DNA from: a bacterium
GTDB lineage: Bacteria > UBA8248 > JACPRG01 > G963555815
DNA length: 64,000 nucleotides
Direction of reading: 5' to 3'
Assembly (NCBI GenBank): GCA_965249615.1
Contig: CBDFMI010000006.1
Location: 444,132 to 508,131, forward strand
In this document: piece after piece, positions 5,667 through 21,850 of the stretch
Numbering within the stretch: the stretch's first letter is position 1
Layout of the letters: each line of letters opens with the position of its first letter
Translations under genes and position numbers: made by a program
Notes under the pieces: generated by a model
The model's database searches: none
What the model saw: the letters and a program-made list of their open reading frames with translations, nothing else
What the model was told of the DNA's origin: nothing

Positions 5667-5769
5667 GGCGCCACTTTTTTACTAACAGATGTTCTCATCC
5701 AATCAGCCCATTCGCATCTGCTGTTCTCTTAATATATCGGTCTTCTATCGTCTGTGGGGAGGAGAAAAG

Positions 5770-7673: not shown

Positions 7674-9794
7674 GTGGACGGTTTACAGTCAGATACTGGG
7701 AGCCGCTGGTCTCTTCTGTGGCGGGATTGTTTGGGGTGGCTATCGGTCTCAGCAGGTCTGGGTGTATTTGAATCGATCCTTCTGGCCTTCCAAAGACCTG
7801 AGATCAATCCCTTCGCAGTGATCGATCTTTTGGATCTCCTGAGCTCCGCCATCGTTTTAAATTCCTTGATGATTCTCCCAGTCTCAGCGGGCCATTTCCT
7901 CCTGTGTTTTCGCCTTTTGGGAGATCGCGACCGTCGGGCGCAGGGTCGAAACACGTTTTTATTCCACCTCGTTGTGTTCCTCGCGTTGGTGTTCACCATT
8001 TTTATTGGCCGAAGACTCATCTTCACGATCCCTGCAGCCATCGTGATCGCCACGGCCCTTTGGTTCGGACTGAAATATACACCCAGGCGGCTGGCCCGTA
8101 TGTTCGGGCTGGGTGTCACCGTTTTCCTGCTGGCCTTTCTTTCCTACGAATTTGCACGGCCATTTTATCCCCTAAAAAATCTCCGCGAGGTCCGGAACGA
8201 AGACAGCGCACTTCCAAATGTGCTCCTGGTGCTTGTGGATACGTTGCGGGCGGATCGGCTCTCCACATACGGCTATTCCAGGGAGACGTCCCCGTTCATT
8301 TCAAAGCTCGCGGGAGAGGGGGCGAAATTTACGAATTTCTATGCGAACGCGAGTTGGACTCCGCCGGCGACGGCAACGATTTTGACCGGCGTATTTCCCT
8401 CAATCCATGGAATAAACGGAACGTCGTTCCAAAAGAAGGCTCCGGTTAAGACGCTTTGTGAGGTTCTGCGCGGACACGGATACAACACGGCTGCGTTTGT
8501 CGCGAACCCATGGATCGGTGAGCGCAGTGGATTACTCGAAGGATGCGACTATCACAGCCCGATGTGGAACCCCTTTAGGCGAAACCACCAGAGACGTGAT
8601 GTCCCAGATCCATCCGCACCCTCTTTCCTGATCCTCGCCAGCGAGCCGATGCTGGAAAACATTTTCGTCTGGAGAAAGTTTGTTTTTTTGCCACGCATTT
8701 TCGTTTGGAATAGATTTGTTTCTTTGTCCGATAGGGTTGTAACCAGCCTTTTCATAATTGACAGGAAGAAGAGCCACCTCCTCCGCGGGGCATTTCGCCT
8801 AATTCAGGAGGTTGATGGAGATGGGAATGATAACCGAGAGGAGATAGAAAATCGCATTCCTCGTGCGGATGAGTTTACACATGGAGTCTTGAACTACGTC
8901 GATTATGTGGCATCGGTGGAAAACCATGATGGCCAAAGGACGAAATTCTTTATCTATCTGCACTATGTAGAACCGCATAGCCCGTATCAGTCACCTGGGC
9001 GCTATGGTCGCCTGTTTGATCCCCACTATCCGGATGAGCGTGTGACTGAGTATCCGGATCCGTCTGAAAATGGGACCACGCCGGAATTGCCGGATGCGCA
9101 GCTGCACAACCTTCAAGCACAATACGACGGAGAGACCCGTTACTTTGATGACAACTTCCAGTTCCTTTTCTCGAATCTAGAGGAAAGGGGGTTCGTGGAT
9201 AACACGTTGATTGTCTTTGTTTCTGACCATGGAGAGGAATTCTACGAGCATCGGGGATTTGGGCATGGGGGAACAGTCTTTGAGGAAGTGCTCAGAGTGC
9301 CTCCCATTTTATGGTACCCCGGCAGCTTGCCCGGCGGACTTGAGGTGGAGGAGCCGGGATCCCAGGTGGATCTAATGCCAACGATTATGGAGGTCCTCGG
9401 TCTTCCGGGGCCCGGGGATTTCCAGGGAAGAAGCTTGTTGCCGCTCATATATGGGGAGGAGAGCGGGGCGGCCATCTATGGAGAAAGCTCACGCGAGCCC
9501 CCTGGCCGCGAGCTTAGTTCTCATCGGTTTTTAGTTCATGGCCGATATAAATTTATCAACCAGGAAAAACCTGAGACAGAGCATGAAAAATTTCTTTTTG
9601 ACCTTCAGTTGGATCCGAACGAGCAAGAAAACATCTACGGCTCTGAAAAAAAGATAGCGGAAGAAATGGAGTTGCTACTGGAAAAATTCGTCACATTGGT
9701 CGAGAATGACCCCCGGTACTCTGAAAACCCAGAGGCCATCGGAGTTGACCCGGAACTGGAGGAGCGTCTGAAGGCTCTCGGATACGTTGAATGA
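7674..9794 (+). CDS. Membrane-anchored sulfatase-family (alkaline-phosphatase superfamily) protein, LtaS/EptA-like architecture, paralogue 1
   Basis: About 5 N-terminal TM helices, then VLLVLVDTLRADRLSTYGY, WTPPATATILTGVFPSIHG and VSDHGEEFYEH. Start codon is uncertain (GTG 7674). Confidence 0.8.
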   Translation: MDGLQSDTGSRWSLLWRDCLGWLSVSAGLGVFESILLAFQRPEINPFAVIDLLDLLSSAIVLNSLMILPVSAGHFLLCFRLLGDRDRRAQGRNTFLFHLVVFLALVFTIFIGRRLIFTIPAAIVIATALWFGLKYTPRRLARMFGLGVTVFLLAFLSYEFARPFYPLKNLREVRNEDSALPNVLLVLVDTLRADRLSTYGYSRETSPFISKLAGEGAKFTNFYANASWTPPATATILTGVFPSIHGINGTSFQKKAPVKTLCEVLRGHGYNTAAFVANPWIGERSGLLEGCDYHSPMWNPFRRNHQRRDVPDPSAPSFLILASEPMLENIFVWRKFVFLPRIFVWNRFVSLSDRVVTSLFIIDRKKSHLLRGAFRLIQEVDGDGNDNREEIENRIPRADEFTHGVLNYVDYVASVENHDGQRTKFFIYLHYVEPHSPYQSPGRYGRLFDPHYPDERVTEYPDPSENGTTPELPDAQLHNLQAQYDGETRYFDDNFQFLFSNLEERGFVDNTLIVFVSDHGEEFYEHRGFGHGGTVFEEVLRVPPILWYPGSLPGGLEVEEPGSQVDLMPTIMEVLGLPGPGDFQGRSLLPLIYGEESGAAIYGESSREPPGRELSSHRFLVHGRYKFINQEKPETEHEKFLFDLQLDPNEQENIYGSEKKIAEEMELLLEKFVTLVENDPRYSENPEAIGVDPELEERLKALGYVE

Positions 9795-9831
9795 AGGTTA
9801 AAGGGCTCGACTCGGACTTGGTGCACACAGC

Positions 9832-12039
9832 ATGAACCGCTGGTCCTTGCTTCGGCGAGATTTTTTGGGATGGCTGGCGGTTTCGGCAGGTCTGGGCGTA
9901 TTTGAATCGGTCTTGCTGGCCTTCCAAAGACCTAAGATCAACCCCTTCGCGGCCATCGATCTGGTCGCTCTTTCGATTTCTGCCGTCCTTTTCAACTCCC
10001 TGATGGTTCTACCCGTTTCACTCGGTCATTTTTTCTTGTATTGGCGGTTTTCTGGAGGCCACGACCATCAGGCGCAGGGCCGAAACGTCTTTTTATTTCA
10101 CCTCGTCGTGTTCCTCGCGGTTGCGTTCATCATTTTTATTGGCCGAAGGCTCATCCTTACGGTTCCTGCAACTATTCTGATGTCCGCGGGCCTTTGGTTC
10201 GGCCTTAGATATCTTTCGACAAGGATTGTTCGGGCATTTTCAGTAGGTGCCGGTATTTTCCTCTTGGCACTTTTTTCGTATGAGTCCCTCCGCTTGCCGC
10301 TCTATATCACAGACCCCGATTATGAACTATGGAAGTCGGAAGTTACGTTATGGGAGGAGGAAGACCCGCGATGTGAGACGCACCTGCGCTTCTCTACTCT
10401 CAACGGCGACCTGGGGTCCCTCGATTCCAGGAACTGTTCCAATTACTACCTGGAGAAGTTCAGGCAGGTAGAAGCGGAGCACCAATCACTGCCGAACGTT
10501 ATTCTGGTTCTTGTCGATACGCTTCGCCCCGATCACCTGTCCACATACGGCTATCATCGAGAGACATCGCCTTTTATTTCGAAGCTGGCGGCGGAGGGGC
10601 TAAAATTTACCAATTTCTATGCGAACGGTGCGTGGACCCCGCCGACGACTTCAACGCTTCTAACCGGCGTTTTTCCCGCAATCCATGGGATATATGAGCC
10701 TGGCGGGCAAAAGAGGGAGACAGTCAAAGTCATTTCTGAGACTCTCCGTGACTACGGCTATAACACAGCCGCCTTTATCGCGAATCCACTGATTACGAAA
10801 AGCACTGGGTTGCTGGACGGATATGATTATTTCTACCGAAAACCCAGGCCGCCGGTGTCGCGGCCGTCGTTGAGGCTCGCGAGCTTCCCCAGTCCGGAGA
10901 ACCTCCTCATATGGGTGAAGTTTCTGTCTCTGTCAGATAAGGTGGTCCAGGCGTTTCGGGGTTTTGATGGGAAGAAAAACGATCTTTTAGTTCAGATATT
11001 TCCCTTCAGCCGTGAATTAGAGCCAGAAAGACAGGAAAGGATACGGGAGGAATTCCGTTTCCCCCCCGCGGAAGTCGACATGGATAAAGAACTCGACTTC
11101 CCCCGGGCGAATGAAATGGCGAACGCGGTGCTGAATTACGTGGATTACGCCTTGGCAGGTCCTGACTTCGACGTTGTGCAAACGAAATTCTTCCTCTTTC
11201 TCCACGACATGGGTCCCCACGATCCTTATAAGTTGCCCACGCCATATGACGTCCTCTTCGACCCTGGGCGCCAGGATAGGCCGGAGGCCGAAGGGGCAGT
11301 CCGGTTTTTGGATGAGTCGCCGCCTGCGTCAGTTCGGGAGAGATTGGCCCATGATTTGCCGCTGTATGACGGAGCAATCCGTTTCTTCGATGATAATTTT
11401 CAGGTGCTCTTTTCGGAACTCAAGGAACGGGGGCTTTTGGACAATACCCTAGTGATCTTGCTGGCAGATCATGGGGAAGAATTCTATGAGCACGGTGAAA
11501 TTGGACATGGGGAGAAGGTCTTTGAGGAAATTGTCAGGATCCCCCTTGTCTTGTGGTATCCAGGGGAATTGCCCTAAGGGGTCGAGGTGAAGGAGTTCGG
11601 GTCGCAGGTGGATATAATACCCACGATCGTGGATGTTCTGGATCTGCCAGTACCAGAGGGGTTGCAGGGAAAGAGCCTCTTGCCCGCGATATCCGGGAGG
11701 GGGCTAGAGAGGGTTGTGTACGGAGAAAACTTGCGTGGTTCGCAGGATTTATCGTCGGGAGATATGTTGCGATTTTTGATCCATGGCCGATATAAACTCA
11801 TCACCATGGGGACACCTAAGACAGTGCGGGAAAAATTGCTCTTTGACCTCCAGTCGGACCCGCATGAGAAAAACAACATCTGCGGGTCTGAGAAAAAGAT
11901 AGCGGAAGAAATGGAATCGCTGCTAGAGGATTTCATCGCATTGGTGAAGAAGGACCCTAGGTATTCTGAAGACCTAGAGGCCGTTGAAGTGGACCCGGAA
12001 CTGCAGAAGCGTCTAAAGGCTCTCGGATACATTGAATGA
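9832..12039 (+). pseudogene. Paralogue 2 of the membrane-anchored sulfatase-family protein, interrupted by an in-frame TAA (11575-11577)
   Basis: Track ORFs 9832-11577 and 11587-12039 share one frame and together align along the whole of paralogue 1: ...WYPGELP*GVEVKEFGSQVDIIPT versus ...WYPGSLPGGLEVEEPGSQVDLMPT. Confidence 0.75.
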
Positions 12040-12129
12040 GGGTTAAAAAGTTCGCGTCGATCCTGGTGAAAAAGCAGGCTCACCTTTGGCCCGCGATCGG
12101 GTTTTTAGTTTGAGAGGACGTGGGTAAGA

Positions 12130-13806
12130 ATGTCCATCTCCAAGGTCGCCCTCCTGGGTCTTGACGGTGCCACCTTCTACCTCCTTCGCCCCTGGATGGA
12201 GGATGGAACGCTCCCCAATCTTGCGAACCTCCAAAAACGGGGAGCCTCTGGGGTCCTTGCCTCCACCGTTCCACCGGTGACACCGACGGCCTGGTCCACG
12301 TGCATCACGGGGGTAAACCCGGGAAAGCACGGGATATTCGATTTTCGAGATTCTCCCCTCCGTCATCCCGACCGCCCCCTTCTGAGTCTATCCTCTATCC
12401 GCGCCCCCCGGCTCTGGCAGCTCCTGAATGGGGTCGGGAAAAAGACCATCATCCTCAATGTCCCCATGACTTATCCACCTGAGGCGGTGGACGGGTGCAT
12501 GGTCTCGGGGATGATGACACCGGGGCCGGAGGCGAACTACACTTATCCCCTGGAACTCAAGGCGGAGATCCGTCGGGAGATCGGAGAGTACCTGCCGGAT
12601 ATCGACCTGCCCAAGTACGACGCCGAGCGTTATGAGGATGCCCTGGCATACCTGGACTTGATACGGAAAAGTTTTTCCCAGCGGGAAAAACTTTTCTTCC
12701 ACCTCATGGAGAACCGGCCCTGGGATTTCTTCATGGGGGTTTTCATCTTGCCCGACCGGCTCCAACACGTCTTCTGGAAATATCTGGACCCTGAGGCCGG
12801 GCTCTACGGGACCGAGATCGCCCAGCGGCTCCGAGGCTCGGTCATTGACTGCTATCGTCTGATGGATGATTTTATCGGGCGCCTCGTGGAGCGGCTTTCC
12901 TCTGATACCCTCCTTCTTATCATGTCGGACCACGGTTTTGGACCCACCCAGGCCTGGATCAACGTGAGCACCTGGCTGGAGCAGCAGGGTCTCCTCAAGA
13001 TGAGGGGCCAGATGGCCCTGCAGCGACGCCTCTTGTACCATGCTGTGGGGCTGAACGAGGTGGGCTGGCTAAAACGCCTTATCCCGCAGTCCCTTCAGGC
13101 CTTCGCCCGAAAACGGGTGCGTCAGACCAAGTCCGCCTTTCGGACCGACGTTCAGGTCACCCTGGACTGGGATCGGACCCAGGCCTTTTTTCCCAGCATT
13201 CCGGCTCAAGGGATCTACATCAATGTGGAGCGGGACGGAGCGGGGATCGTCCCCCCGGGGGAGGCCTACGAGGCCCTGCGCGCTCGGCTTCGCGATTCGT
13301 TGCTGGCCCTGAAGGACCCGGCGACAGGGGAACGGATCGTGGACGCGGTGCAGTATCGAGAAGAGGTCTACCACGGGCCCGAAACCCCCTACGCCCCGGA
13401 CCTGTTCTTCGTCGCCCGAAATTACAGCTACCTGGGCCGGCCGATGTTTGGGGGCCGAGAGGTCATCCGGTCGCGCGTCCAGGTGCCAAACGGCTTTCAC
13501 CGCCCCGACGGGATCTTCATGGCTCATGGACCTCACGTGGCCTCGGGCCGGGCGGTCACTGGCTCCCACATCGCTGACATCACCCCCACCATCCTCTATA
13601 GTCTCGGCCTCCCCGTCCCAAAAGAGATGGACGGAAAGCCTTTGTCGGAGATCTTTGAGGCGGACTTTCGGCCCGAGAAGAAGGGCCAAGAGGTGAGCGC
13701 TACTGAAAGTCCACAGCCGCCTGAGAGGACTCCCTCTGAGGCTTATCGTCCCGAGGAGGCCTCCGCCATCGAGAAACGCCTTCGGGCCCTGGGGTATGAG
13801 GACTGA
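12130..13806 (+). CDS. Type I phosphodiesterase/nucleotide pyrophosphatase-like (NPP, alkaline-phosphatase superfamily) protein 1
   Basis: ALLGLDGATF, PPVTPTAWSTCITGVNPGKHGIFDF and LLIMSDHGFG are metal-ligand and Thr-nucleophile motifs of the NPP family. Confidence 0.8.
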   Translation: MSISKVALLGLDGATFYLLRPWMEDGTLPNLANLQKRGASGVLASTVPPVTPTAWSTCITGVNPGKHGIFDFRDSPLRHPDRPLLSLSSIRAPRLWQLLNGVGKKTIILNVPMTYPPEAVDGCMVSGMMTPGPEANYTYPLELKAEIRREIGEYLPDIDLPKYDAERYEDALAYLDLIRKSFSQREKLFFHLMENRPWDFFMGVFILPDRLQHVFWKYLDPEAGLYGTEIAQRLRGSVIDCYRLMDDFIGRLVERLSSDTLLLIMSDHGFGPTQAWINVSTWLEQQGLLKMRGQMALQRRLLYHAVGLNEVGWLKRLIPQSLQAFARKRVRQTKSAFRTDVQVTLDWDRTQAFFPSIPAQGIYINVERDGAGIVPPGEAYEALRARLRDSLLALKDPATGERIVDAVQYREEVYHGPETPYAPDLFFVARNYSYLGRPMFGGREVIRSRVQVPNGFHRPDGIFMAHGPHVASGRAVTGSHIADITPTILYSLGLPVPKEMDGKPLSEIFEADFRPEKKGQEVSATESPQPPERTPSEAYRPEEASAIEKRLRALGYED

Positions 13807-13807
13807 G

Positions 13808-14878
13808 ATGGCAGGTCTGATGACGAAAGTCTCCCATGCCCTTCGAGGGGGTTGGGGGACCCTTTTGAAGGTCGGGGTGAGTGGACTGCTCATCCTTGTC
13901 CTCATTTGGCAGGTGGATTTCGATCGGCTTTGGGTCGTCGTCCGGGATATGTCCCCCGCCTGGCTCCTCCTGGCGCTCTTCTTCAAGTCGGGAGGGGTAT
14001 TCTCGAGCATCCTTCGGTGGCGAGTGCTTCTGAAGGGACAGGACCTCGCCGTCCCTTTAAAAGTCCTCACCTCCTCCTTTCTCGAAGGCCGTTTCTTCGG
14101 CACCTTCACGCCGAGCACCATCGGCCTTGACGCCTATCGAACGTATGACCTGGCCAAGTATTCCGGCCGAACAGCGGCCTCGGTTTCAGTCACATTGGTG
14201 GATAAGGTGATCGGGCTGTTCTCTCTCTCCTTTCTCGTGGCGGTCACCTCATTTGCCGGCGCCCGGTTTGTTGGAGGGCAAGGGGTCTTCTCCCTTCTCC
14301 TCGTCTTCTGTGTCCCCCTCTCCCTGTCCCTGATCTTTCTCCTTTTTCCGGGGCTCCTTGGCCGACTCGTCGACATCAGGAGGTGGAAATCAGGAGGATG
14401 GGCGGAGAAGATGGGCCGTTTCGTCGAAACCGTCACCGTCTATCGCCACCACCGGATCCTCATTGTTCAGGCGGTCGGGCTCGCTATCTTGGTCCACCTT
14501 GGGACCACGCTCATGTATTACGGGACGGCCCTTTCGGTGCAAGCCCCGGTCAGCCCCTTGGACATCCTCTTCGTTGGGCCCCTGATGATCACGGCGACGG
14601 TCATCCCTCTTTCTGTGGCCGGGATCGGGGTCCGTGAGGGGACCTTTGTCTTCTTCCTCACTCGGGTGGGGATCGAGGCGGAGGCCGCCATCCTTCTCGC
14701 CTTTCTCGGGTTCCTCGTAGGCGAGGTCATCAGCCTTTTCGGAGGCTTCATCTTCCTGTTGCGCTCCCACGCGTATCATCGGCGTGAGGGGGGGGTCGCC
14801 GGGGCCGCGGAAAGCGGCCTGGGCAAAGCCGGGGGTGAGGAAGAGGCCGTGGGGACAAAGAAAGAGATTGGCTCTTGA
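13808..14878 (+). CDS. UPF0104 / lysylphosphatidylglycerol-synthase-TM-region family 'flippase-like' membrane protein
   Basis: SILRWRVLLKGQ...FLEGRFFGTFTPSTIGLDAYRTYDL motif and about 8 TM helices. ATG 13808 lies 1 nt after the upstream TGA and is preceded by GAGGA. Confidence 0.75.
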   Translation: MAGLMTKVSHALRGGWGTLLKVGVSGLLILVLIWQVDFDRLWVVVRDMSPAWLLLALFFKSGGVFSSILRWRVLLKGQDLAVPLKVLTSSFLEGRFFGTFTPSTIGLDAYRTYDLAKYSGRTAASVSVTLVDKVIGLFSLSFLVAVTSFAGARFVGGQGVFSLLLVFCVPLSLSLIFLLFPGLLGRLVDIRRWKSGGWAEKMGRFVETVTVYRHHRILIVQAVGLAILVHLGTTLMYYGTALSVQAPVSPLDILFVGPLMITATVIPLSVAGIGVREGTFVFFLTRVGIEAEAAILLAFLGFLVGEVISLFGGFIFLLRSHAYHRREGGVAGAAESGLGKAGGEEEAVGTKKEIGS

Positions 14879-16551
14879 GACGCCTCCTCATCATCGGCGT
14901 CGACGCCGGCACCCTGGACCTCATCGAGCCGTGGGCCCGAGCGGGTGATCTCCCCCATCTGGCCCGTCTCCTCAGGGAGGGGGCCTATGGGCGAGTCCAG
15001 TCGACCCTCCCCCCCTCCACCTATCCCGCCTGGACCTCCTTCATGACCGGTCAGAACCCCGGGCGGCACGGTCTCGTGGACTTCACCTTGAGGGAGGGAG
15101 GGCGCTATGCCGTCAGATTCGCCAGCTCCCGAGACCGGCAAAGTGCTAGTTTGTGGGGGATCCTCAGTGAGGCCGGCCGAAGAGTCGCCGTCCTCGGCAT
15201 GCCCGCCACATACCCCCCTGAAGCCGTCAACGGCTGTATGGTCAGCGGATTCGACTCCCCCCTAGCATGGCGTCTCAACGAGAGCTTTTTTCATCCTCGA
15301 GGGCTCCACCGGGAGGTCATACAGGAGGCGGGACTCTTCCCGCTCTCGGCCTGCCGGGAGGATCGGATCGGAAAGGGCTGGCACGAGCGGGCCTATCGGG
15401 AGATCCTGAAATCACTGGAGCAAGAAACTCGCGTGGCGGAGTACCTCCTGGGCCGGGAAGCGTGGGATTGCTTCTGCGTCGTCTTCGGCCAGACAGATAC
15501 GGTGTGCCATCATTTCTGGAAATTCTTCGACCCATCCTCTCCCCGATATGACTCAGAGGGGGCGAGGCGCTTTGGAGACGCCATCCGTCAAGTCTATCGG
15601 CGTGTGGATTCAGCCATCGGTTCCCTGCTGCAAAAGGCGCCCGATGACGTCACGGTCCTCATCGTCTCGGACCACGGAGCGGGGGGGGCAGGAAACCAGA
15701 TTATTCATTTAAACGCTTGGCTGGCCGGGGAGGGCCATCTGACCTTTCGAAAGGGGGGGGTGGGCTACCGTGCCCTTTCAGCCCTGAAGACGCTGGGCCT
15801 CGGCTATCTCCCGAGGAGGGTTCAAGAACAGGTCTTTCGTGCGGGCGGGGGCAGGCTGGCAAATGGGCTAGAATCCCGCTTGCGTTTCGGCCAGATCGAA
15901 TGGGCGAAGACCCGGGTCTATTCCGAGGAGCTGGGTTATTTCCCCTCTCTTTGGATCAACCTTCGGGGGAGGGAGCCTCAGGGGACGGTGGAGCCCGGCA
16001 GGGAATATGAGGATCTGAGGGACGAGATCATCAGCCGCTTAGAGGTTCTCAGACACCCCGTCACGGGGAGGCGCCTCGTTGAGCGGGCCGTTCGGCGAGA
16101 GGAGGTTTATTGGGGCCCCTTTGTGGACCGGGTTCCTGACATTCTCCTGGAGCTCGCCCTCGACGAGGGCTATAGCTACTCCTGCCTTCGAAGTCCAGCC
16201 CGCTCCCAGGGCCCCTTCGTTCGCTCTCTCCAGAGAGCGGAGGGGGCCAGGGGCCAGGGGATGAACGGCTCACACCGACCAGAGGGGTTTTTCGTTCTCT
16301 CGGGTGAGGGGGTGCGCCCGGGGAAGTGCCGGTTCACCCCCCATCTCATGGACTTTGCCCCGACGCTTCTCGCCCTTTTGGGGATCACCCCTTCGGTGGG
16401 GATGGACGGTCGGGTCTTGGAAGAAGTCCTGAGCGTCCCTGAGCCTCATCCCGTCCCCGTCGCCGTGGCAGGGGAAGAGACGCCTTCGGCGGCCCAGGGG
16501 TGGGAAGGCACGGCCTTCCGGCGGCTTCGGGACCTTGGATACCTGGAATGA
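14875..16551 (+). CDS. NPP-like alkaline-phosphatase-superfamily protein 2
   Basis: Paralogue of 12130-13806 (IIGVDAGTLD, PPSTYPAWTSFMTGQNPGRHGLVDF, LIVSDHGAGG). The TTG start overlaps the upstream stop (TTGA). Confidence 0.8.
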   Translation: MRRLLIIGVDAGTLDLIEPWARAGDLPHLARLLREGAYGRVQSTLPPSTYPAWTSFMTGQNPGRHGLVDFTLREGGRYAVRFASSRDRQSASLWGILSEAGRRVAVLGMPATYPPEAVNGCMVSGFDSPLAWRLNESFFHPRGLHREVIQEAGLFPLSACREDRIGKGWHERAYREILKSLEQETRVAEYLLGREAWDCFCVVFGQTDTVCHHFWKFFDPSSPRYDSEGARRFGDAIRQVYRRVDSAIGSLLQKAPDDVTVLIVSDHGAGGAGNQIIHLNAWLAGEGHLTFRKGGVGYRALSALKTLGLGYLPRRVQEQVFRAGGGRLANGLESRLRFGQIEWAKTRVYSEELGYFPSLWINLRGREPQGTVEPGREYEDLRDEIISRLEVLRHPVTGRRLVERAVRREEVYWGPFVDRVPDILLELALDEGYSYSCLRSPARSQGPFVRSLQRAEGARGQGMNGSHRPEGFFVLSGEGVRPGKCRFTPHLMDFAPTLLALLGITPSVGMDGRVLEEVLSVPEPHPVPVAVAGEETPSAAQGWEGTAFRRLRDLGYLE

Positions 16552-17768
16552 GTGGAGAGAAAGGATCTCGTCGGAAGGTGGCCATGGTGGCCCCCTGTCC
16601 CTTCCCAAGCGTTCAGGGCTCCCAGATCCTGATCCAGGATCTGGCCGGGGGCCTCGAGAGGAGGGGACACGAGGTCCACGTGGTCACTTACCCCTTCGGG
16701 GGCTCCCGTCCGACCGCTTCCTTGCGGATCCACCGGGCTGCCTGTCCCCTTCGTTATGCCGTGGACCACCCGGGCCCTCATCTCTATAAACCTTTTCTGG
16801 ACCTCTTCGTCTTGAGAGAGCTCCTGCGGGTCATCCGCGGGGAGGGGATTGAGCTCCTCCACGCCCACAGCTATGAGGGGTTGCTCATCTCCCTGCTGGC
16901 CGGAAGGTGGACGGGCATTCCCGTCCTCTATCACAGCCACACCCTCCTCGAGGAGGAGCTCCCCACCTATTTTCGGGCCTCGTGGAAGCGCGCCCTGGCG
17001 CATTGGGTGGGCCGACTGCTGGACCGACAGCTTCCGCGTCGGTCAGACCATTGCATTGCCCTTTGTCAGAGAACCCTTGGGGCCTTTCGGGCCTTGGGGG
17101 TGGCGGCGGATCGCTCTTCCTGCATTCGTCCTCTGATCTTTTCCCCCGCCGATAAAACTCCTTCCAGGGTGGATGTAGAGCGCCATCCCTTCATCCTCTA
17201 TACGGGAAACCTCCACCCGTATCAGGATCTCAATCTCCTGATGGAGGGGTTCGCCGAGGTGGCCTCGAGGCTCTCAGAGGTCCGCCTGGTTATCGCCACC
17301 CATTCTGACCCTTCCCATTACGCCGCCCTGGCAAGGGCCCTGGGGCTGTCGGAGCGGGTCTCCTTTCGCGTGAAACCTCCCTTGGATGAAGAGTGGGGTT
17401 TGATGCGGAGGGCCGACCTCCTCGTCTGTCCGCGCCTTCGGTGCTCCGGCTACCCCATCAAGCTTTTGAACTACCTGGCGGCTGGAAGGCCCATCCTCGT
17501 CAGTGAGGGCTCGGCCGAGGGGATTCGCCATGGCGAGAACGGCTACGTTGTCTCTCGGCCTGAACCGAAAACCCTGGCGGAGGGGGCTATTCAAATCCTT
17601 CAGTCCCCCGCCTTGGCAAAACGGTTGGGCGAAGGGGCGGCCCGGACCTACCGGGAGGAGGTGGCGGAAGAGCGCTCCTTGTCGGCCATCGAGGCCATCT
17701 ACACGCAGTGTCTGGGGGAGGAGGGGAACGCGGCCCTCCTCGCCCACCCGAGGGAAATGGCCTCATGA
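16548..17768 (+). CDS. Glycosyltransferase family 4 (GT-B fold)
   Basis: KVAMVAPCPFPSVQGSQILIQDLAGGLERRGHEVHVVT N-terminal and C-terminal GYPIKLLNYLAAGRPILVSEGSAEGIRHGENGYVV (E-x7-E region). The ATG overlaps the upstream stop (ATGA). Confidence 0.85.
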   Translation: MSGEKGSRRKVAMVAPCPFPSVQGSQILIQDLAGGLERRGHEVHVVTYPFGGSRPTASLRIHRAACPLRYAVDHPGPHLYKPFLDLFVLRELLRVIRGEGIELLHAHSYEGLLISLLAGRWTGIPVLYHSHTLLEEELPTYFRASWKRALAHWVGRLLDRQLPRRSDHCIALCQRTLGAFRALGVAADRSSCIRPLIFSPADKTPSRVDVERHPFILYTGNLHPYQDLNLLMEGFAEVASRLSEVRLVIATHSDPSHYAALARALGLSERVSFRVKPPLDEEWGLMRRADLLVCPRLRCSGYPIKLLNYLAAGRPILVSEGSAEGIRHGENGYVVSRPEPKTLAEGAIQILQSPALAKRLGEGAARTYREEVAEERSLSAIEAIYTQCLGEEGNAALLAHPREMAS

Positions 17769-19168
17769 CCAAGGTCTTGATCCTGGGCCTCGATTGCGCA
17801 GACCCTCGCCTGGTCTTTGACCGCTGGCGACAAGAACTTCCGAACCTCAGACAGCTCATGGAGGCCGGCGTCTGGGGCCCTCTTCAGAGCACCATCCCCC
17901 CCATCACGGTCCCAGCCTGGGCCTGCATGATGACGGGGCGGGACCCTGGAGAGCTAGGGATCTATGGGTTCCGAAACCGGACCTCCTATCAGTACGGGGC
18001 CCTGGGGATCACCAGCTCTCTCTCGGTCCAAGAGGAGACCCTGTGGGACATCCTGGGCCGCACCGGCCGGGAGGTGGTGGTCGTCGGGGTCCCTCCTTCA
18101 TATCCTGTGAAGCCCGTCCGGGGCAGCCTCATCTCCTGCTTTCTCACCCCGAACGCCGAGGTCCCTTTCACGCATCCCCCTGAGCTCAAGGAGGAGGTTC
18201 AGCGTCTTGCCGGCGGGTACCTGTTTGACGTGGAGGGATTCCGGACCGACGACAAGCCCCGGCTCCTCCAACAGATCCACGAGATGACAGAAAAACGCTT
18301 TAGGGTCCTGAAACACCTACTCACCCGAAAGCCGTGGGACTTTTTTATGTCGATGGAGATCGGGGTGGACCGCATGCATCACGGCTTTTGGAAATTTCAC
18401 GATGAGGGCCACATCAAGCACCCCCCGCAAAACCCCTATCAGCACGTCATTCTGGACTATTACCGCTATGTGGACAAGGAGATCGGTGAGCTGGTGGAGT
18501 CCGTCGACGAGGACACGGTCATCATCGTCCTCTCTGATCACGGGGTGAAGAGGATGGAGGGGGGGCTGTGCGTCAACGAATGGCTCATGAAGCAGAAATA
18601 TCTGAGCCTCTCCGCCTACCCCAAGGAGCTCACCTCCCTCAGCAAGCTCGATGTGAACTGGGACCGGACCATGGTCTGGGGAGAAGGGGGGTACTATGGC
18701 CGGATCTATCTCAACGTAAAGGGCCGGGAACCCCAGGGGGTCATCGCCCCAAATGACGTGGAGAAGATCCGGGCAGAGCTGAAACAGGGCATGGAAGAGC
18801 TTTCCGACGAATCAGGGCGCCCCCTCGGGACCCGCGTATTCTATCCCGAGGAGGTCTATCAGGAGGTCCGGAGGATCCCGCCCGATCTCATCGTCTATTT
18901 TGGAGACCTGGACTGGCGCTCTGTCGGGACCGTGGGCCATGGCTCGATCCACACCCGAGAGAATGACACGGGCCCTGACGACGCCAACCACGACACCCAC
19001 GGGATATTCATCATGGCGAAGAAGGCGGACCTCAAAGGGGGCGGGACCGGTCTGGGAACCCGCCTCGACGGTCTCAGCCTCTACGACGTGACCCCCACCG
19101 TCCTGGACCTCCTTGGCCTTCCCATCCCACCCTCGATGCACGGGCGAGTGATTTCTCCTAGAGCCTGA
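17765..19168 (+). CDS. NPP-like alkaline-phosphatase-superfamily protein 3 (divergent)
   Basis: LILGLDCADP, PPITVPAWACMMTGRDPGELGIYGF and IVLSDHGV. ATGA overlap with the GT4 gene. It lacks the shared C-terminal tail, and the HG of the TG-x-x-PG-x-HG motif is LG here. Confidence 0.8.
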   Translation: MTKVLILGLDCADPRLVFDRWRQELPNLRQLMEAGVWGPLQSTIPPITVPAWACMMTGRDPGELGIYGFRNRTSYQYGALGITSSLSVQEETLWDILGRTGREVVVVGVPPSYPVKPVRGSLISCFLTPNAEVPFTHPPELKEEVQRLAGGYLFDVEGFRTDDKPRLLQQIHEMTEKRFRVLKHLLTRKPWDFFMSMEIGVDRMHHGFWKFHDEGHIKHPPQNPYQHVILDYYRYVDKEIGELVESVDEDTVIIVLSDHGVKRMEGGLCVNEWLMKQKYLSLSAYPKELTSLSKLDVNWDRTMVWGEGGYYGRIYLNVKGREPQGVIAPNDVEKIRAELKQGMEELSDESGRPLGTRVFYPEEVYQEVRRIPPDLIVYFGDLDWRSVGTVGHGSIHTRENDTGPDDANHDTHGIFIMAKKADLKGGGTGLGTRLDGLSLYDVTPTVLDLLGLPIPPSMHGRVISPRA

Positions 19169-19208: not shown

Positions 19209-19236
19209 TTGACGGGGAAAAATGGGTGTATATACT
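19209..19236 (+). promoter_or_regulatory. Strong sigma70-like promoter (TTGACG-N16-TATACT); copy A of a 40-nt conserved element
   Basis: TTGACG at 19209-19214 and TATACT at 19231-19236. The 40-nt block 19201-19240 matches 35889-35928 at 35/40 positions (hand count). Confidence 0.5.
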
Positions 19237-20042: not shown

Positions 20043-20675
20043 CTAGTCGATATATCCCAAGCCCTTCAGTTTGGCCTGGATGGTCTGCTTCTCTTCCTCG
20101 GAATAGACGTAATCGGCGGGCTCGATGTAACCGAATTCTTCCAGCCGAGAGAGAATATGCGCGACAGATTCCTTAACCGACTCTTTGTCCGTCTCGACGG
20201 TTATCTCGGGGTTGAGGGGCTCTTCATAGGGGTCTGAGACCCCCGTAAAATTCTTAATCTCACCCTTAAAAGCTTTCGCGTACATCCCTTTCACGTCCCG
20301 TTCTGCGCAGACCTCAACAGGGCATTTGACGTAGAGCTCCACGAAGCGCCCCACCTCGGCCCTTACGGCGTCTCGGATGGCCCGGTAGGGGGCGATGACC
20401 GCCGCCATGTTGGGAACCCCGTTTCGGGTCAAGAGGTGACAGAGGTATCCCAGGCGAATGATGTGCTTATCGCGGTCCTCTTTGGAGAAGCCGAGGTCGG
20501 CGCTGAGATTGCGGCGCACTTCGTCGCCGTCGAAGACCTCGACGTTCGGAAAACCGCGCTCGTGAAGTTTCTCTCCGAGAAGAACGGCAATCGTGCTTTT
20601 CCCTGAGCAGGGAAGGCCTGTGAACCAGACCGTGAACCCTCTGGGTTTATCTTTGATCACTTTCTCTCTCCTCAA
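20043..20675 (-). CDS. cysC: Adenylylsulfate (APS) kinase with C-terminal extension
   Basis: GFTVWFTGLPCSGKSTIA P-loop and FDGDEVRRNLSADLGFSKEDRDKHIIRLGY. An extra tail of about 35 aa ends in LKGLGYID. Confidence 0.9.
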   Translation of the reverse strand: MRREKVIKDKPRGFTVWFTGLPCSGKSTIAVLLGEKLHERGFPNVEVFDGDEVRRNLSADLGFSKEDRDKHIIRLGYLCHLLTRNGVPNMAAVIAPYRAIRDAVRAEVGRFVELYVKCPVEVCAERDVKGMYAKAFKGEIKNFTGVSDPYEEPLNPEITVETDKESVKESVAHILSRLEEFGYIEPADYVYSEEEKQTIQAKLKGLGYID

Positions 20676-21850
20676 GAGCCGCCGTCAGAACCCTGTCCTG
20701 CCCGCTCGGCGTAAGCCTGGTGCAAGACCCGGGCGACTTCAGGCCGCATCACCTCCGGGGGTGGAAGCTCCCCGCGGTCTAAAATTTCCCTCACACGAGT
20801 TCCGCTCAGGAAGACGCGCTCTTTCTCCCCGTGGGGGCAGGTCTTGGCCGTTATCATGGCCTCACACCCACGGCAGTAGAAGGCGTGGTCGAAGAAGAGA
20901 GGGGTGATCCCGATCTCCGAGGCCTCGAACTCGTGGAAGATATGGTGGGCGTCATAGGAGCCGTAGTAAGACCCGACGCCGGCGTGGTCCCGGCCCACGA
21001 TGAAATGGGTACAGCCGTAGTTCTTTCGCACGATAGCGTGGAAGATGGCCTCCTTCGGCCCGGCGTAGCGCATGGCCGCCGGAAACACGGAGAGGACCGT
21101 CCGGTTCTTGGGAAAATAGCTCTCCAGGATCACCCTGTAGGAGGCCATCCGGAGGTCCGCCGCCAGGTCGCCCTCCTTGGTGGCCCCGACCAGGGGATGA
21201 AGTAGGAGGCCGTCCACACATTCTAGGGCGCACTTCTGAATGTACTCGTGGGCGCGATGAATGGGGTTTCGGGTCTGGAAGGCCACGACCGTCTTCCACC
21301 CCTTGAGCTGAAAGAGAAGGCGGGTCTCCTTGGGTTCCAGATGGAAGTTGGACCACTCGGTGGCGGCCCCTCTTCGAAGGAGTTTAATAGGCCCCCCGAT
21401 GAGGACAGGGCCTCGCTCGAAGACCTGGCGAACCCCGGGGTGGTCCGAATCTTTTGTCCCGAAGACCTGCTCCACCTCCCTCTCCTTGTCCGGCTTCCAC
21501 TGAGAGGTGACCCGAAGAAGCCCGGTCGTTTCCTTCCCGACCGTGAGGGTAATCTCGTCACCTATGGAAAGGGTCTGGGCCGTCTTCTCATCCACGCCGA
21601 GGACGATGGGAAGCGTCCAGGGAAGGCCCAAGGCGAGGCGCTGGTCTTCCACCACAGCCTGGTAGTCCTCCTCCTCCATGAATCCCCTTAGGGGGCTGTA
21701 GGCCCCCGTCGCGATGAGTTCGAGATCGGAATGCTCCTGGGCCGACAGGGCGATTTTCGGCAGCCCTTGGGCTTTTTTGTCCAAGGCGGGCCGATCCTCC
21801 TCCCGGACCATCCGGTCGACGAGGACCCCGCCGTGCGGTTTGATAGGCAC
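20672..21850 (-). CDS. sat: Sulfate adenylyltransferase (ATP sulfurylase, homo-oligomeric Sat type)
   Basis: QTRNPIHRAHEYIQK, HPLVGATKEGD and GRDHAGVG motifs. 4-nt overlap with cysC. Confidence 0.9.
   Translation of the reverse strand: MPIKPHGGVLVDRMVREEDRPALDKKAQGLPKIALSAQEHSDLELIATGAYSPLRGFMEEEDYQAVVEDQRLALGLPWTLPIVLGVDEKTAQTLSIGDEITLTVGKETTGLLRVTSQWKPDKEREVEQVFGTKDSDHPGVRQVFERGPVLIGGPIKLLRRGAATEWSNFHLEPKETRLLFQLKGWKTVVAFQTRNPIHRAHEYIQKCALECVDGLLLHPLVGATKEGDLAADLRMASYRVILESYFPKNRTVLSVFPAAMRYAGPKEAIFHAIVRKNYGCTHFIVGRDHAGVGSYYGSYDAHHIFHEFEASEIGITPLFFDHAFYCRGCEAMITAKTCPHGEKERVFLSGTRVREILDRGELPPPEVMRPEVARVLHQAYAERAGQGSDGGS

What the first reader, a model, noticed from the sequence alone, without database searches (positions are those of the whole stretch)
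7674..19168. Operon packed with five alkaline-phosphatase-superfamily paralogues, a flippase-like protein and a GT4: an uncharacterised envelope-modification system
Seen directly: seven co-directional genes. Two tandem proteins of about 700 aa have a ~5-helix membrane anchor plus a sulfatase-family catalytic domain. Three soluble NPP/type-I-phosphodiesterase-like proteins (486-558 aa) alternate with a UPF0104 (LPG-synthase-TM, 'flippase-like') membrane protein and a GT4 glycosyltransferase. From 12130 to 19168 the genes are translationally coupled: TGAgATG at 13804-13810, TTGA at 14875-14878, and ATGA at 16548-16551 and 17765-17768. Inference: a membrane-associated assembly line that glycosylates a lipid or glycan acceptor, translocates it, and adds or trims phosphoester substituents. 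I do not recognise this gene set as any characterised pathway (not LTA synthesis, not lipid A PEtN modification, not a Wzx/Wzy cluster).
Basis: partly seen in the sequence, partly recalled or inferred. Interest (0 to 1): 0.75.

Follow-up and report, generated by a model that had tools for sequence, protein, structure and literature searches.

The report
Conserved flippase plus phosphotransferase envelope module
This stretch carries a gene set, conserved across many uncultivated bacterial phyla and never studied, that most likely builds a lipid-linked sugar-phosphate on the inside of the membrane, flips it across, and attaches it to a cell-surface polymer; one of its seven genes is broken and one probably serves sulfate activation instead.

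Summary
The seven co-directional genes, their domains and the four overlapping junctions are real. There are three corrections. The second membrane sulfatase gene carries an in-frame TAA at 11575-11577. Both sulfatase genes are compositionally foreign (GC3 0.58-0.60 against 0.73-0.82). A terminator-like hairpin separates them from the five coupled genes.

The order NPP-UPF0104-NPP-GT4-NPP recurs at 48-68% identity in two other lineages. A broader module, NPP1-UPF0104-TM-sulfatase-NPP2-GT4, recurs in many phyla, often inside Wza/Wzc polysaccharide clusters. UPF0104 and the sulfatase are the conserved core: 57 of 62 metagenome loci have them adjacent, and 42 of those are in-frame fusions.

The sulfatases have Thr where true sulfatases have formylglycine, and their catalytic domain is predicted to be periplasmic. 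The three NPPs lack signal peptides and keep a complete two-metal site.

NPP3 is repeatedly linked to ATP sulfurylase (fusion, operon, adjacency), as in archaeal PAPS clusters whose NPP-family member is a characterised pyrophosphatase.

A C-terminal "RLxxLGY" tail is shared by the sulfatases, NPP1, NPP2 and the neighbouring APS kinase, and is unexplained.

Best model: a lipid-linked donor is made, flipped and transferred by a periplasmic phosphotransferase. No substrate is known. This is a new variant of a known logic.

The parts
7674..9794 (+). SulfTM1: 706-aa protein with 5 TM helices and a sulfatase-fold (PF00884 + SGSH_C) domain predicted to be periplasmic. Thr229 (nt 8358-8360) replaces the formylglycine Cys/Ser. 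C-terminal 'RLKALGYVE' tail at nt 9759-9791.
   Evidence: Pfam. The alignment to 7oz8 shows T-P-P-A-T in place of S-x-P-x-R. AF2 model with 5 TM helices and a catalytic domain at pLDDT >90. Hydropathy plus the positive-inside rule gives N-in, C-out. Family invariants are T229, D518, H519 and Y704. GC3 is 0.58.
9832..12039 (+). SulfTM2: a paralogue of SulfTM1 (58.7% identity) interrupted by an in-frame TAA at 11575-11577. Active-site motifs and the tail (nt 12004-12036) are intact. It is absent from the 94%-identical relative L001.
12088..12103 (+). Terminator-like hairpin followed by a T-run, in the 90-bp spacer between SulfTM2 and NPP1. Possible boundary of the transcription unit.
   Evidence: consensus scan only; 19 sites found against 15.9 expected in shuffles
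12130..13806 (+). NPP1: 558-aa cytoplasmic NPP-type AP-fold enzyme with no signal peptide. Complete two-metal site (D12, T51, N110, D209, H213, D267, H268, H457). Helical insert at residues 293-333. Disordered linker at 511-540, then the tail 'YRPEEASAIEKRLRALGYED' (nt 13744-13803).
   Evidence: Pfam. Family alignment invariants. AF2 model pLDDT 88.7, with the tail at pLDDT 42-64. Foldseek matches to ENPP, Xac NPP and PhnA at E ~1e-14 and ~15% identity. More than 4000 homologues at ~50% identity across phyla.
13796..14878 (+). UPF0104 / LPG_synthase_TM (MprF flippase-domain family) membrane protein of 360 aa. The start is ATG 13796 or ATG 13808, which are in the same frame.
   Evidence: Pfam E 2e-33 and TIGR00374. 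The subfamily is found next to or fused with a TM-sulfatase in 57 of 62 loci.
14875..16551 (+). NPP2: 558-aa cytoplasmic NPP-type paralogue with a TTG start overlapping the UPF0104 stop. Tail 'FRRLRDLGYLE' (nt 16507-16548). Always paired with the GT4 in related loci.
16548..17768 (+). GT4 retaining glycosyltransferase (GT-B fold) of 406 aa. The nearest solved relatives are BshA and MshA.
   Evidence: Pfam. PDB phmmer hits 3mbo/2jjm at E 1e-15.
17765..19168 (+). NPP3: 467-aa cytoplasmic NPP-type paralogue without the tail. It belongs to a very strongly conserved family (55-59% identity across phyla). It is probably functionally tied to the convergent cysC-sat pair.
   Evidence: Sat~NPP3 fusion in P0045. 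Operon Sat-NPP3-PHP-NPP in L091. Archaeal parallel (PMC8268124, PMC4463584).
20043..20675 (-). APS kinase CysC (210 aa) with a 25-aa C-terminal extension. The extension ends in the NPP1-type tail 'YSEEEKQTIQAKLKGLGYID' (nt 20046-20105).
   Evidence: Pfam and NCBIfam profiles end at residue ~185. The tail is present in 4 of 4 CysC genes next to the cluster and in 1 of 589 unrelated ORFs.
20672..21850 (-). ATP sulfurylase Sat (392 aa), overlapping cysC. The adjacency to NPP3 is conserved in L001, L002 and L008.

Best explanation
The locus combines two functional units.

(A) An envelope-modification module
- Its conserved core is a UPF0104 lipid flippase/scramblase working with a membrane-anchored, periplasm-facing, sulfatase-fold enzyme.
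- That enzyme has a Thr nucleophile. It would therefore act as a phosphoryl-group transferase or esterase of the LtaS/EptA/OpgB type, not as a sulfatase.
- In this lineage and in 'class A' relatives, the core is served by a cytoplasmic GT4 and two cytoplasmic NPP-type phosphodiesterase/phosphotransferase paralogues (NPP1, NPP2).

Proposed sequence (inferred, not shown):
1. At the inner leaflet the GT4 glycosylates a lipid-bound polyol, phosphate or head group, as GpgS does with phosphatidylglycerol.
2. NPP1 and NPP2 make or remodel a phosphodiester on it.
3. UPF0104 moves the lipid-linked donor to the outer leaflet.
4. The periplasmic Thr enzyme attacks the phosphodiester, forms a phospho-enzyme, and passes the phospho-linked group to an exopolysaccharide or other envelope glycan.

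(B) A sulfate-activation unit
- This comprises Sat, CysC and NPP3.
- NPP3 most likely hydrolyses pyrophosphate (or a nucleotide pyrophosphate) to pull the ATP sulfurylase reaction, as the NPP-family protein TON_1705 does in Thermococcus.

The shared C-terminal RLxxLGY tail on NPP1, NPP2 and CysC suggests that the two units are physically coupled in this lineage.
For: Shown here:
- Domains and translational coupling.
- Gene order conserved at 48-68% identity in L002 and L008.
- The module NPP1-UPF0104-sulfatase-NPP2-GT4 is confirmed by independent gene calls in L088 (LCP-89), L089 and L090. It occurs inside clusters with Bac_transf, Wza, Wzc and GT2.
- UPF0104 is followed directly by the sulfatase in 57 of 62 loci. 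In 42 of these the two form an in-frame fusion of ~1000 aa. Pfam confirms the fusion in L089 and L090.
- Thr occupies the FGly position in SulfTM1, in SulfTM2 and in nearly all of the 150 nearest representatives where the motif could be recognised.
- The topology is 5 TM, N-in, catalytic domain out.
- The NPP two-metal site is invariant in NPP1, NPP2 and NPP3, and none has a signal peptide.
- NPP3 is linked to Sat by a fusion in P0045, by the operon Sat-NPP3-PHP-NPP in L091 where the PHP protein best matches pAp phosphatase, and by convergent adjacency in four loci.
- The tail is found in 22/36 sulfatases, 19/29 NPP1, 11/21 NPP2, 4/4 CysC and 1/589 other ORFs.

From the literature:
- GT4 + UPF0104 operons make and export modified glycolipids (gpgSDF, hexSDF; PMC12713373).
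- UPF0104 domains are flippases or scramblases (PMC5898192, PMC11980842, 10.1101/2022.03.11.483950).
- Archaeal PAPS clusters contain an NPP-family gene. It is annotated and measured as a pyrophosphatase (PMC8268124, PMC4463584, PMC9653972 Table 1).
Against: - No substrate, donor or acceptor is identified. Steps 1, 2 and 4 are analogy only.
- The sulfatase catalytic domain is closest in sequence and fold to S1 sulfatases and phosphonate monoester hydrolases, not to LtaS or EptA.
- In the window the sulfatase genes are compositionally foreign, sit outside the coupled operon, and one is disrupted. L002 has the five-gene set with no sulfatase nearby.
- What two or three cytoplasmic AP-fold enzymes would do to a lipid-linked intermediate has no precedent.
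- The GT4's nearest solved relatives (BshA, MshA) use soluble acceptors.
- The window contains no other polysaccharide genes.
- Orthology of NPP3 to TON_1705 could not be tested because the sequence was not retrievable.
- The tail occurs on proteins predicted to lie on both sides of the membrane. A single common docking partner is therefore unlikely.
Confidence: 0.45

Rival explanations
1. PAPS-channelling sulfation system. Sat and CysC make PAPS. CysC docks to NPP1/NPP2 through the shared tail. One of the NPP-type enzymes acts as an AP-fold sulfotransferase (or uses APS/PAPS in another way) on the GT4 product. The result is a sulfated glycolipid or glycan that UPF0104 exports.
For: - The cysC-sat adjacency is conserved in the window, L001, L002 and L008.
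- CysC carries a 20-aa tail matching the NPP1 consensus Y[ST]xxExxxIxx[RK]LxxLGY[LI][ED] in 4 of 4 cases.
- Sat~NPP3 fusion and Sat-NPP3-pApase-like-NPP operon.
- No classical sulfotransferase was found among the annotated ORFs of the window or among the families shared by class A neighbours.
- ASST-like proteins follow the GT4 in L026 and L044.
Against: - Most loci carrying the module have no Sat or CysC nearby.
- The NPP3-Sat link is explained more simply by pyrophosphatase help, as with TON_1705.
- No AP-fold sulfotransferase is known.
- The active site is a standard NPP phosphodiesterase site.
- The ASST hits are weak.
Confidence: 0.12
2. Membrane-lipid remodelling. The cytoplasmic NPPs act as phospholipase C/D-type enzymes on phospholipid head groups, as ENPP2, ENPP6 and ENPP7 do in animals. 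The GT4 glycosylates the released diacylglycerol, and UPF0104 redistributes the new glycolipid. This would be a phosphate-sparing response like PlcP-Agt.
For: - The NPP fold matches ENPP6 and ENPP7 as well as the nucleotide NPPs.
- NPP1 and NPP2 have an extra helical insert that could bind membrane.
- GT4 enzymes make glycolipids, and UPF0104 is a lipid flippase (PMC12713373).
Against: - It does not explain the near-obligate pairing or fusion of UPF0104 with a periplasmic Thr-type sulfatase-fold enzyme.
- It does not explain the embedding in Wza/Wzc/Bac_transf polysaccharide clusters.
- No pst/pho genes were seen in any locus.
Confidence: 0.12
3. Soluble glycoside pathway. A BshA/MshA-like GT4 glycosylates a small polyol- or acid-phosphate, and an AP-fold enzyme removes the phosphate (the synthase/phosphatase logic of compatible-solute or thiol-cofactor pathways). 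The membrane proteins would be exporters or unrelated.
For: - The nearest solved GT4s are BshA and MshA.
- NPP2 and GT4 are always adjacent.
- The NPPs are cytoplasmic.
Against: - GT4 similarity at E 1e-15 is generic.
- The model needs three paralogous phosphatases.
- It ignores the UPF0104~sulfatase core and the polysaccharide context.
Confidence: 0.08
4. There is no system. The genes are independent phosphatases or sulfatases for nutrient scavenging that happen to be neighbours.
For: AP-superfamily enzymes are commonly scavenging hydrolases. The sulfatase genes have a foreign base composition.
Against: - The three NPPs have no export signal.
- The stop/start overlaps indicate coupling.
- The order is conserved across phyla, and domain fusions exist.
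Confidence: 0.03

Closest known systems
gpgSDF (P. aeruginosa GlcN-phosphatidylglycerol) and hexSDF (C. difficile aminohexosyl glycolipid) operons
   Same: A cytoplasmic GT4 that glycosylates a membrane lipid, a cytoplasmic head-group-modifying enzyme, and a UPF0104 family flippase, all in one operon (PMC12713373).
   Different: The modifying enzyme there is a deacetylase. Here it is two or three NPP-type AP-fold enzymes. A periplasmic Thr-type sulfatase-fold enzyme is the obligate partner of the flippase. Sequence relatedness of the GT4 and UPF0104 to GpgS and GpgF was not tested.
LtaS / EptA (MCR) / OpgB / GacH lipid-dependent phospho-group transferases
   Same: Several N-terminal TM helices (five in LtaS and EptA) plus an extracytoplasmic AP-superfamily domain. 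A metal-bound Thr nucleophile and a D-H metal pair. The predicted mechanism is a phospho-enzyme formed from a phospholipid-type donor.
   Different: The catalytic domain belongs to the S1 sulfatase / phosphonate monoester hydrolase branch, with an SGSH_C subdomain. NCBIfam scores to LtaS, EptA and CptA are 15-36 bits against cut-offs of 400-1250. Foldseek top hits are sulfatases. The domain is frequently fused to a flippase domain, which these enzymes are not.
MprF (flippase domain + lysyl-PG synthase)
   Same: The same UPF0104 flippase domain is fused to a lipid-head-group enzyme in one polypeptide. This is the logic of the 42 UPF0104~sulfatase fusions.
   Different: The partner domain in MprF is a cytoplasmic aminoacyl transferase (DUF2156). 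Here it is a periplasmic AP-fold domain reached through five extra TM helices.
Archaeal PAPS gene cluster: Sat - pAp phosphatase - NPP-family pyrophosphatase (TON_1705 / PYCH_17550) - APS kinase
   Same: A PF01663 protein sits next to ATP sulfurylase and APS kinase. The bacterial relative L091 adds a pAp-phosphatase-like PHP protein. NPP3 occupies this position.
   Different: NPP3 is translationally coupled to the GT4 operon and lies convergent to cysC-sat. Orthology to TON_1705 is untested. NPP3 homologues also occur in Wzc/Wzy clusters without Sat (L005, L092).
Formylglycine (S1) sulfatases and phosphonate monoester hydrolases
   Same: Best sequence and fold match of the TM-anchored proteins. 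They share the PFF..Y..DPHxPY and SDHGE motifs.
   Different: The FGly-forming C/S-x-P-x-R motif is replaced by T-x-P-x-[T/H/V/I]. There is a membrane anchor and a conserved C-terminal RLxxLGY tail.
Arn (Ara4N) and Gtr (O-antigen glucosylation) pathways
   Same: Three-step logic: a lipid-linked donor is made in the cytoplasm, flipped, then transferred to a surface glycan in the periplasm.
   Different: Different protein families at every step (GT2, ArnEF/GtrA and GT-C, against GT4/NPP, UPF0104 and an AP fold).

Membership tests
S1 formylglycine sulfatases | C/S-x-P-x-R motif that is converted to formylglycine | tested here: not met
   SulfTM1 has T-P-P-A-T and SulfTM2 has T-P-P-T-T at that position. 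Thr229 is invariant in 73 relatives. The 150 nearest representatives show TxPx[T/H/V/I] wherever the motif was recognisable.
S1 formylglycine sulfatases | Sulfatase fold with C-terminal subdomain | tested here: met
   PF00884 E 1e-43 and PF16347 E 5e-16. Foldseek top hits are sulfatases and PMH at E ~1e-23.
LtaS / EptA / OpgB-type phospho-group transferases | N-terminal multi-TM anchor with extracytoplasmic AP-fold domain | tested here: met
   Five TM helices at residues 11-161 in the AF2 model. The positive-inside rule puts the catalytic domain outside. This is a prediction only.
LtaS / EptA / OpgB-type phospho-group transferases | Thr nucleophile plus acidic residue and D-H metal ligands | tested here: met
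   D189, T229, D518 and H519 are invariant or nearly invariant.
LtaS / EptA / OpgB-type phospho-group transferases | Sequence membership (curated HMM cut-offs) | tested here: not met
   NCBIfam LtaS 27 bits against a cut-off of 970, EptA 29 against 561, CptA 36 against 900.
LtaS / EptA / OpgB-type phospho-group transferases | Transfer of a phospho-alcohol from a phospholipid donor | not testable with these tools
   Needs enzymology or lipidomics.
NPP / type I phosphodiesterase (PF01663) | Two-metal site D, T, D-H, D-H, H plus Asn | tested here: met
   D12, T51, N110, D209, H213, D267, H268 and H457 are invariant or nearly invariant across the NPP1 family, NPP2 and NPP3. Pfam E 5e-35 to 8e-51. 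Foldseek matches to ENPP and Xac NPP.
NPP / type I phosphodiesterase (PF01663) | Secreted or ecto-enzyme location of characterised NPPs | tested here: not met
   All three start directly with the first beta-strand (MSISKVALLGLDG, MRRLLIIGVDAG, MTKVLILGLDCA). No signal peptide is present.
gpgSDF / hexSDF type glycolipid operons | GT4 + UPF0104 in one operon | tested here: met
gpgSDF / hexSDF type glycolipid operons | Deacetylase (COG3233 or polysaccharide deacetylase) as the middle gene | tested here: not met
   No deacetylase domain is present in the window cluster.
gpgSDF / hexSDF type glycolipid operons | GT4 acts on a membrane lipid | not testable with these tools
   The nearest solved GT4s are BshA and MshA, which use soluble acceptors. 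This is not decisive.
PAPS-cluster NPP-family pyrophosphatase (TON_1705-like) | PF01663 protein genomically tied to Sat, CysC and a pAp phosphatase | tested here: met
   For NPP3: adjacency in four loci, the P0045 fusion, and the L091 operon with a PHP protein matching NF041577 at E 3e-60.
PAPS-cluster NPP-family pyrophosphatase (TON_1705-like) | Sequence orthology to TON_1705 / PYCH_17550 and PPi hydrolysis | not tested
Activity needs an assay.
Anti-phage defence systems (PglZ/BREX, GT4-conflict) | Match to PADLOC models | tested here: not met
   No hit at E <= 0.001 for any of the eight proteins.

The most novel reading that the evidence does not exclude
The conserved C-terminal RLxxLGY tail may be a portable docking peptide that assembles AP-fold enzymes with the APS kinase into one complex. 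Within that complex, an NPP-type enzyme would use APS or PAPS as a donor. That would make it a sulfotransferase (or sulfo/phospho-group transferase) with an alkaline-phosphatase fold, producing a sulfated lipid-linked glycan that the flippase-sulfatase-fold pair then exports and installs.
Probability: 0.1. Interest if true: 0.9.

Novelty: new variant of a known kind. Interest (0 to 1): 0.62.

Why it matters
- The module occurs in many phyla that have few or no cultured members: Tectomicrobia/Nitrospinota-like, Zixibacteria, LCP-89, Fermentibacteria, Sumerlaeota, Chloroflexi, NC10 and Myxococcota. Its protein families are large. Searches capped at 8000 candidates gave more than 4000 (NPP1) and 8000 (NPP3) hits at E <= 1e-10.
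- The membrane sulfatase has 20,134 representatives at E <= 1e-30 in the 50% library, a count that also includes ordinary sulfatases. Among its 150 nearest representatives, Thr at the nucleophile position predominates and 106 carry the tail. No member has an assigned function or a solved structure.
- If the model holds, it defines a new route for putting phosphate-linked substituents on bacterial surface polymers.
- It would give a function to 'sulfatase-like' proteins that cannot be sulfatases.
- It would supply a second natural example, after MprF, of a flippase domain fused to the enzyme whose lipid it handles.
- It also flags bacterial NPP-family proteins as probable helpers of sulfate activation.

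Tried and rejected
- An exact-sequence look-up of NPP2 found no contig on record.
- phmmer of NPP3 against the PDB found nothing. A profile search found only distant ENPP and PhnA matches. No close structure exists.
- COG3379 appears in one unrelated paper. No paper holds both 'flippase domain' and 'sulfatase domain'. Searches linking the AP superfamily to sulfotransferases gave nothing relevant.
- An apparent NPP2~GT4 fusion in L019 was an artefact of an open alternative frame. The UPF0104~sulfatase fusions were therefore re-tested, requiring the same frame and no stop; 42 of 57 survived.
- Neighbours of the stand-alone fusion genes are housekeeping genes (GpsA, FeoB, FTR1, amidase, Nuo) and give no functional hint.
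- A pooled Pfam scan of 99 class A neighbours showed no sulfotransferase, Pho or Pst family among the families shared by two or more neighbours. It showed only scattered GT2, alpha/beta hydrolase, EamA, Wza and ASST-like hits.
- No PADLOC, Rfam or tRNA hits.
- The Lee et al. 2009 paper on TON_1705 is not held. The afdb50 fold library was unavailable.
- A single common cytoplasmic docking partner for the tail was rejected, because the sulfatase tail is predicted to be periplasmic and is confidently modelled in cis (pLDDT ~90). The NPP1 tail, in contrast, sits on a disordered linker.

Full report
**1. Observation**

The ORF scan shows seven co-directional genes between 7674 and 19168. Pfam and NCBIfam give these assignments:
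- Sulfatase PF00884 with the SGSH_C subdomain for 7674-9794 and 9832-12039.
- Type I phosphodiesterase PF01663 for 12130-13806 (NPP1), 14875-16551 (NPP2) and 17765-19168 (NPP3).
- LPG_synthase_TM PF03706 / TIGR00374 for 13796-14878.
- GT4 domains for 16548-17768.

- The second sulfatase gene contains an in-frame TAA at 11575-11577. The parts before and after the stop are equally similar to copy 1 (58% and 62%), and the catalytic motifs are intact. The interruption is therefore recent, an assembly error, or tolerated.
- Both sulfatase genes have GC3 of 0.58-0.60, against 0.73-0.82 for every neighbour.
- A terminator-like hairpin lies in the spacer before NPP1. It is a consensus match only.

The firmly coupled unit is therefore the five genes at 12130-19168. 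The rest of the window is ordinary chromosome of a diderm bacterium: Nuo, DnaN, MreB, TolB, AsmA and pyruvate kinase. It has no RNA genes and no other polysaccharide genes.

**2. Conservation**

A scan of species-representative genomes found three loci:
- L001 (94% identity) has the same order but only one sulfatase.
- L002 (49-65% identity) has NPP1-UPF0104-NPP2-GT4-NPP3 followed by convergent cysC-sat. It has no sulfatase; UbiD lies upstream.
- L003 (Myxococcales) has sulfatase-NPP-GT4 inside a Wzx/GT/UDP-glucose dehydrogenase polysaccharide cluster.

A metagenome scan used a profile of the UPF0104 subfamily. It found 263 relatives, and the best 80 were fetched. tBLASTn and ORF maps show three arrangements:
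- L008 matches the window: sulfatase-NPP1-UPF0104-NPP2-GT4-NPP3, with convergent cysC-sat, at 48-70% identity (its sulfatase only 33%).
- 'Class A' loci have NPP1-UPF0104-TM-sulfatase-NPP2-GT4.
- 'Class B' loci have a single ~1000-aa gene in which UPF0104, five further TM helices and the sulfatase domain are fused.

Of 62 loci with at least 1.8 kb downstream of UPF0104, 57 have the sulfatase directly downstream. In 42 of these it is in the same frame with no stop. Four of the other five carry a sulfatase elsewhere in the cluster.

Independent gene calls with precomputed Pfam confirm the module and the fusion:
- L088 (candidate division LCP-89): GT2/Bac_transf-Wza-NPP-NPP1-UPF0104-PHP-Sulf-Sulf-NPP2-GT4.
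- L089: NPP1-[PF03706+PF00884, 992 aa]-NPP2-GT4.
- L090: Wza-Wzc-GT2-epimerase-GT4-..-NPP-NPP1-[fusion, 1061 aa].

**3. The sulfatase-fold proteins**

- The alignment to a solved sulfatase places T-P-P-A-T where the formylglycine motif S/C-x-P-x-R should be.
- In an alignment of 73 relatives, Thr229, D518, H519, H435 and H531 are invariant.
- Among the 150 nearest cluster representatives from a 1.8-billion-protein library, the recognisable motifs are TxPx[T/H/V/I].
- These proteins therefore cannot make formylglycine. Thr is the nucleophile used by phosphoryl-transfer members of the superfamily (NPP, LtaS, EptA); this is established knowledge.
- The AlphaFold model (pLDDT 78.8; catalytic domain >90) has five TM helices at residues 11-161.
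- Loop charges put the N-terminus inside and the catalytic domain outside, both in SulfTM1 and in the fusions.
- The architecture is thus that of LtaS and EptA. By sequence and fold, however, the domain sits with S1 sulfatases and phosphonate monoester hydrolases. It fails the curated LtaS, EptA and CptA cut-offs by a wide margin.

**4. The NPP paralogues**

- All three begin directly with the first strand of the catalytic domain and have no signal peptide.
- The complete NPP two-metal site is invariant across the NPP1 family and in NPP2 and NPP3.
- The NPP1 model is confident (pLDDT 88.7, pTM 0.90). It matches ENPP1/3/5/6/7, Xanthomonas NPP and phosphonoacetate hydrolase at about 15% identity. 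No closer structure exists.
- NPP1 and NPP3 each belong to large, strongly conserved families: ~50% and 55-59% identity across phyla, and at least 4171 and 8000 hits respectively.

**5. NPP3 and sulfate activation**

NPP3 homologues appear in several contexts:
- Alone (L004).
- In Wzc/Wzy clusters (L005, L092).
- In a LysW-type cluster (L007).
- Fused in frame to the C-terminus of ATP sulfurylase (P0045).
- In an operon Sat-NPP3-PHP-NPP (L091).
- Overlapping a PHP gene (L093). The PHP proteins of L091 and L093 best match the NCBIfam model for 3',5'-nucleoside bisphosphate (pAp) phosphatase, at E 3e-60 and 8e-64, below the equivalog cut-off.

Archaeal genomes have a conserved cluster of Sat, pAp phosphatase, a type I phosphodiesterase/NPP gene and APS kinase (PMC8268124). 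In T. onnurineus the corresponding gene, TON_1705, is listed as a characterised pyrophosphatase with Km 18.8 uM (PMC4463584; PMC9653972 Table 1). The link from TON_1705 to PF01663 rests on positional correspondence with PYCH_17550.

I therefore read NPP3, which lies next to convergent cysC-sat in four loci, as a helper of sulfate activation. Sequence orthology could not be tested.

**6. The shared tail**

Many of these proteins end in RLxxLGY followed by zero to two residues. Counts are unless stated:
- 22 of 36 sulfatases, plus 14 ORFs labelled UPF0104, most or all of them UPF0104~sulfatase fusions.
- 19 of 29 NPP1 and 11 of 21 NPP2.
- None of 10 NPP3 and none of 21 GT4.
- All 4 CysC proteins adjacent to the cluster.
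- Only 1 of 589 other ORFs: an M20 peptidase beside NPP genes in L007.
- 106 of the 150 nearest sulfatase-like representatives.
- Tyr704 is invariant in the sulfatase family, and R550, L551, L554, G555 and Y556 are at least 90% conserved in NPP1.

The CysC tail matches the longer NPP1 consensus (Y[ST]xxExxxIxx[RK]LxxLGY[LI][ED]). It lies beyond the end of the APS-kinase profiles.

In the NPP1 model the tail helix sits on a ~30-residue low-confidence linker. In the sulfatase model the tail is confidently placed. Its role is unexplained. It suggests an oligomerisation or docking element, and it links CysC to NPP1/NPP2 in this lineage.

**7. Mechanism**

Shown:
- Gene order, coupling and fusions.
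- Thr nucleophile and intact metal sites.
- Predicted topology.
- Polysaccharide-cluster context in several phyla.

Inferred by analogy with three systems:
- gpgSDF/hexSDF, in which a GT4 makes a glycolipid, a cytoplasmic enzyme modifies it, and a UPF0104 protein exports it (PMC12713373).
- MprF, in which a flippase is fused to a head-group enzyme.
- LtaS, EptA and OpgB, in which a periplasmic Thr-type AP fold takes a phospho-group from a lipid donor.

The inferred sequence is as follows. The GT4 and NPP1/NPP2 build a lipid-linked phospho-glycosyl donor at the inner leaflet. UPF0104 flips it. The periplasmic Thr enzyme transfers the phospho-linked group to a surface glycan.

In class B organisms, the fused protein alone would use an ordinary phospholipid.

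What the cytoplasmic NPPs do chemically is the weakest step. I put confidence in this overall model at 0.45.

**8. Rivals**

- A PAPS-channelling sulfation system with an AP-fold sulfotransferase (0.12).
- Phosphate-sparing lipid remodelling (0.12).
- A soluble glycoside-phosphate pathway (0.08).
- Unrelated scavenging enzymes (0.03).

Defence-system membership is excluded at the level of PADLOC.

**9. Novelty and score**

Every component family is known, and the three-step logic (make a donor, flip it, transfer it outside) is known. The following are not described in the literature I could search:
- The enzyme set.
- The flippase~Thr-sulfatase fusion.
- The cytoplasmic NPP paralogues.
- The shared tail.
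- The tie to sulfate activation.

No member has a solved structure or an assay. I rate this a new variant of a known kind, with interest 0.62.

Noticed in passing
window 20046-20105 (- strand), 13744-13803, 16507-16548, 9759-9791, 12004-12036: A conserved C-terminal tail (RLxxLGY plus 0-2 residues) is shared by the two sulfatases, NPP1, NPP2 and the APS kinase CysC. It is absent from NPP3 and the GT4. In related loci it also ends an M20 peptidase (L007:6852-8036). In NPP1 it sits on a disordered linker. Function unknown.
   Followed up: partly
window 11575-11577: An in-frame TAA splits the second TM-sulfatase gene. The downstream 153 codons are as conserved as the upstream part. The closest relative (L001) lacks this gene copy altogether.
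   Followed up: yes
window 7674-12039: Both sulfatase genes have much lower GC3 (0.58-0.60) than all flanking genes (0.73-0.82). This suggests acquisition from another lineage, or replacement of the sulfatase that sits between UPF0104 and NPP2 in other phyla.
   Followed up: partly
P0045; L091:5822-10893; L093:6162-8389: NPP3-family proteins are fused to ATP sulfurylase (P0045). They are also co-operonic with Sat (L091) and with a PHP protein resembling pAp phosphatase (L091, L093). This is a bacterial counterpart of the archaeal Sat-pApase-NPP-CysC cluster.
   Followed up: partly
window 22046-23464 (- strand): The ThyX gene is 472 aa with two separate Thy1 (PF02511) stretches. That is roughly double the usual length, so it may be a tandem-duplicated or fused flavin-dependent thymidylate synthase.
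   Followed up: no
window 5689-6882: Class V (archaeal-type) fructose-1,6-bisphosphate aldolase/phosphatase (PF01950, E 7e-157), directly upstream of gcvH and the cluster. The synteny FBPase-GcvH-sulfatase is kept in L001.
   Followed up: no
window 19209-19236 and 19306-20034: A sigma-70-like promoter match (TTGACG-16-TATACT) lies ahead of a 242-aa ORF with no Pfam, NCBIfam or PADLOC match. The ORF is wedged between NPP3 and cysC and has no counterpart at that position in L001, L002 or L008.
   Followed up: partly
L026:7564-9225, L044:13184-14896: A ~550-570-aa protein with weak arylsulfotransferase (ASST)/NHL beta-propeller matches directly follows the module's GT4 in two class A loci.
   Followed up: no
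L007:596-11443: Three NPP-family genes are embedded in a LysW/LysX amino-group-carrier-protein cluster with transketolase subunits, an MFS transporter and an aminotransferase. This is a quite different context for the NPP3 family, possibly a natural-product pathway.
   Followed up: no
window 38231-40297 (- strand): A 688-aa pentapeptide-repeat protein (PF00805, eight matched stretches), unrelated to the finding.
   Followed up: no
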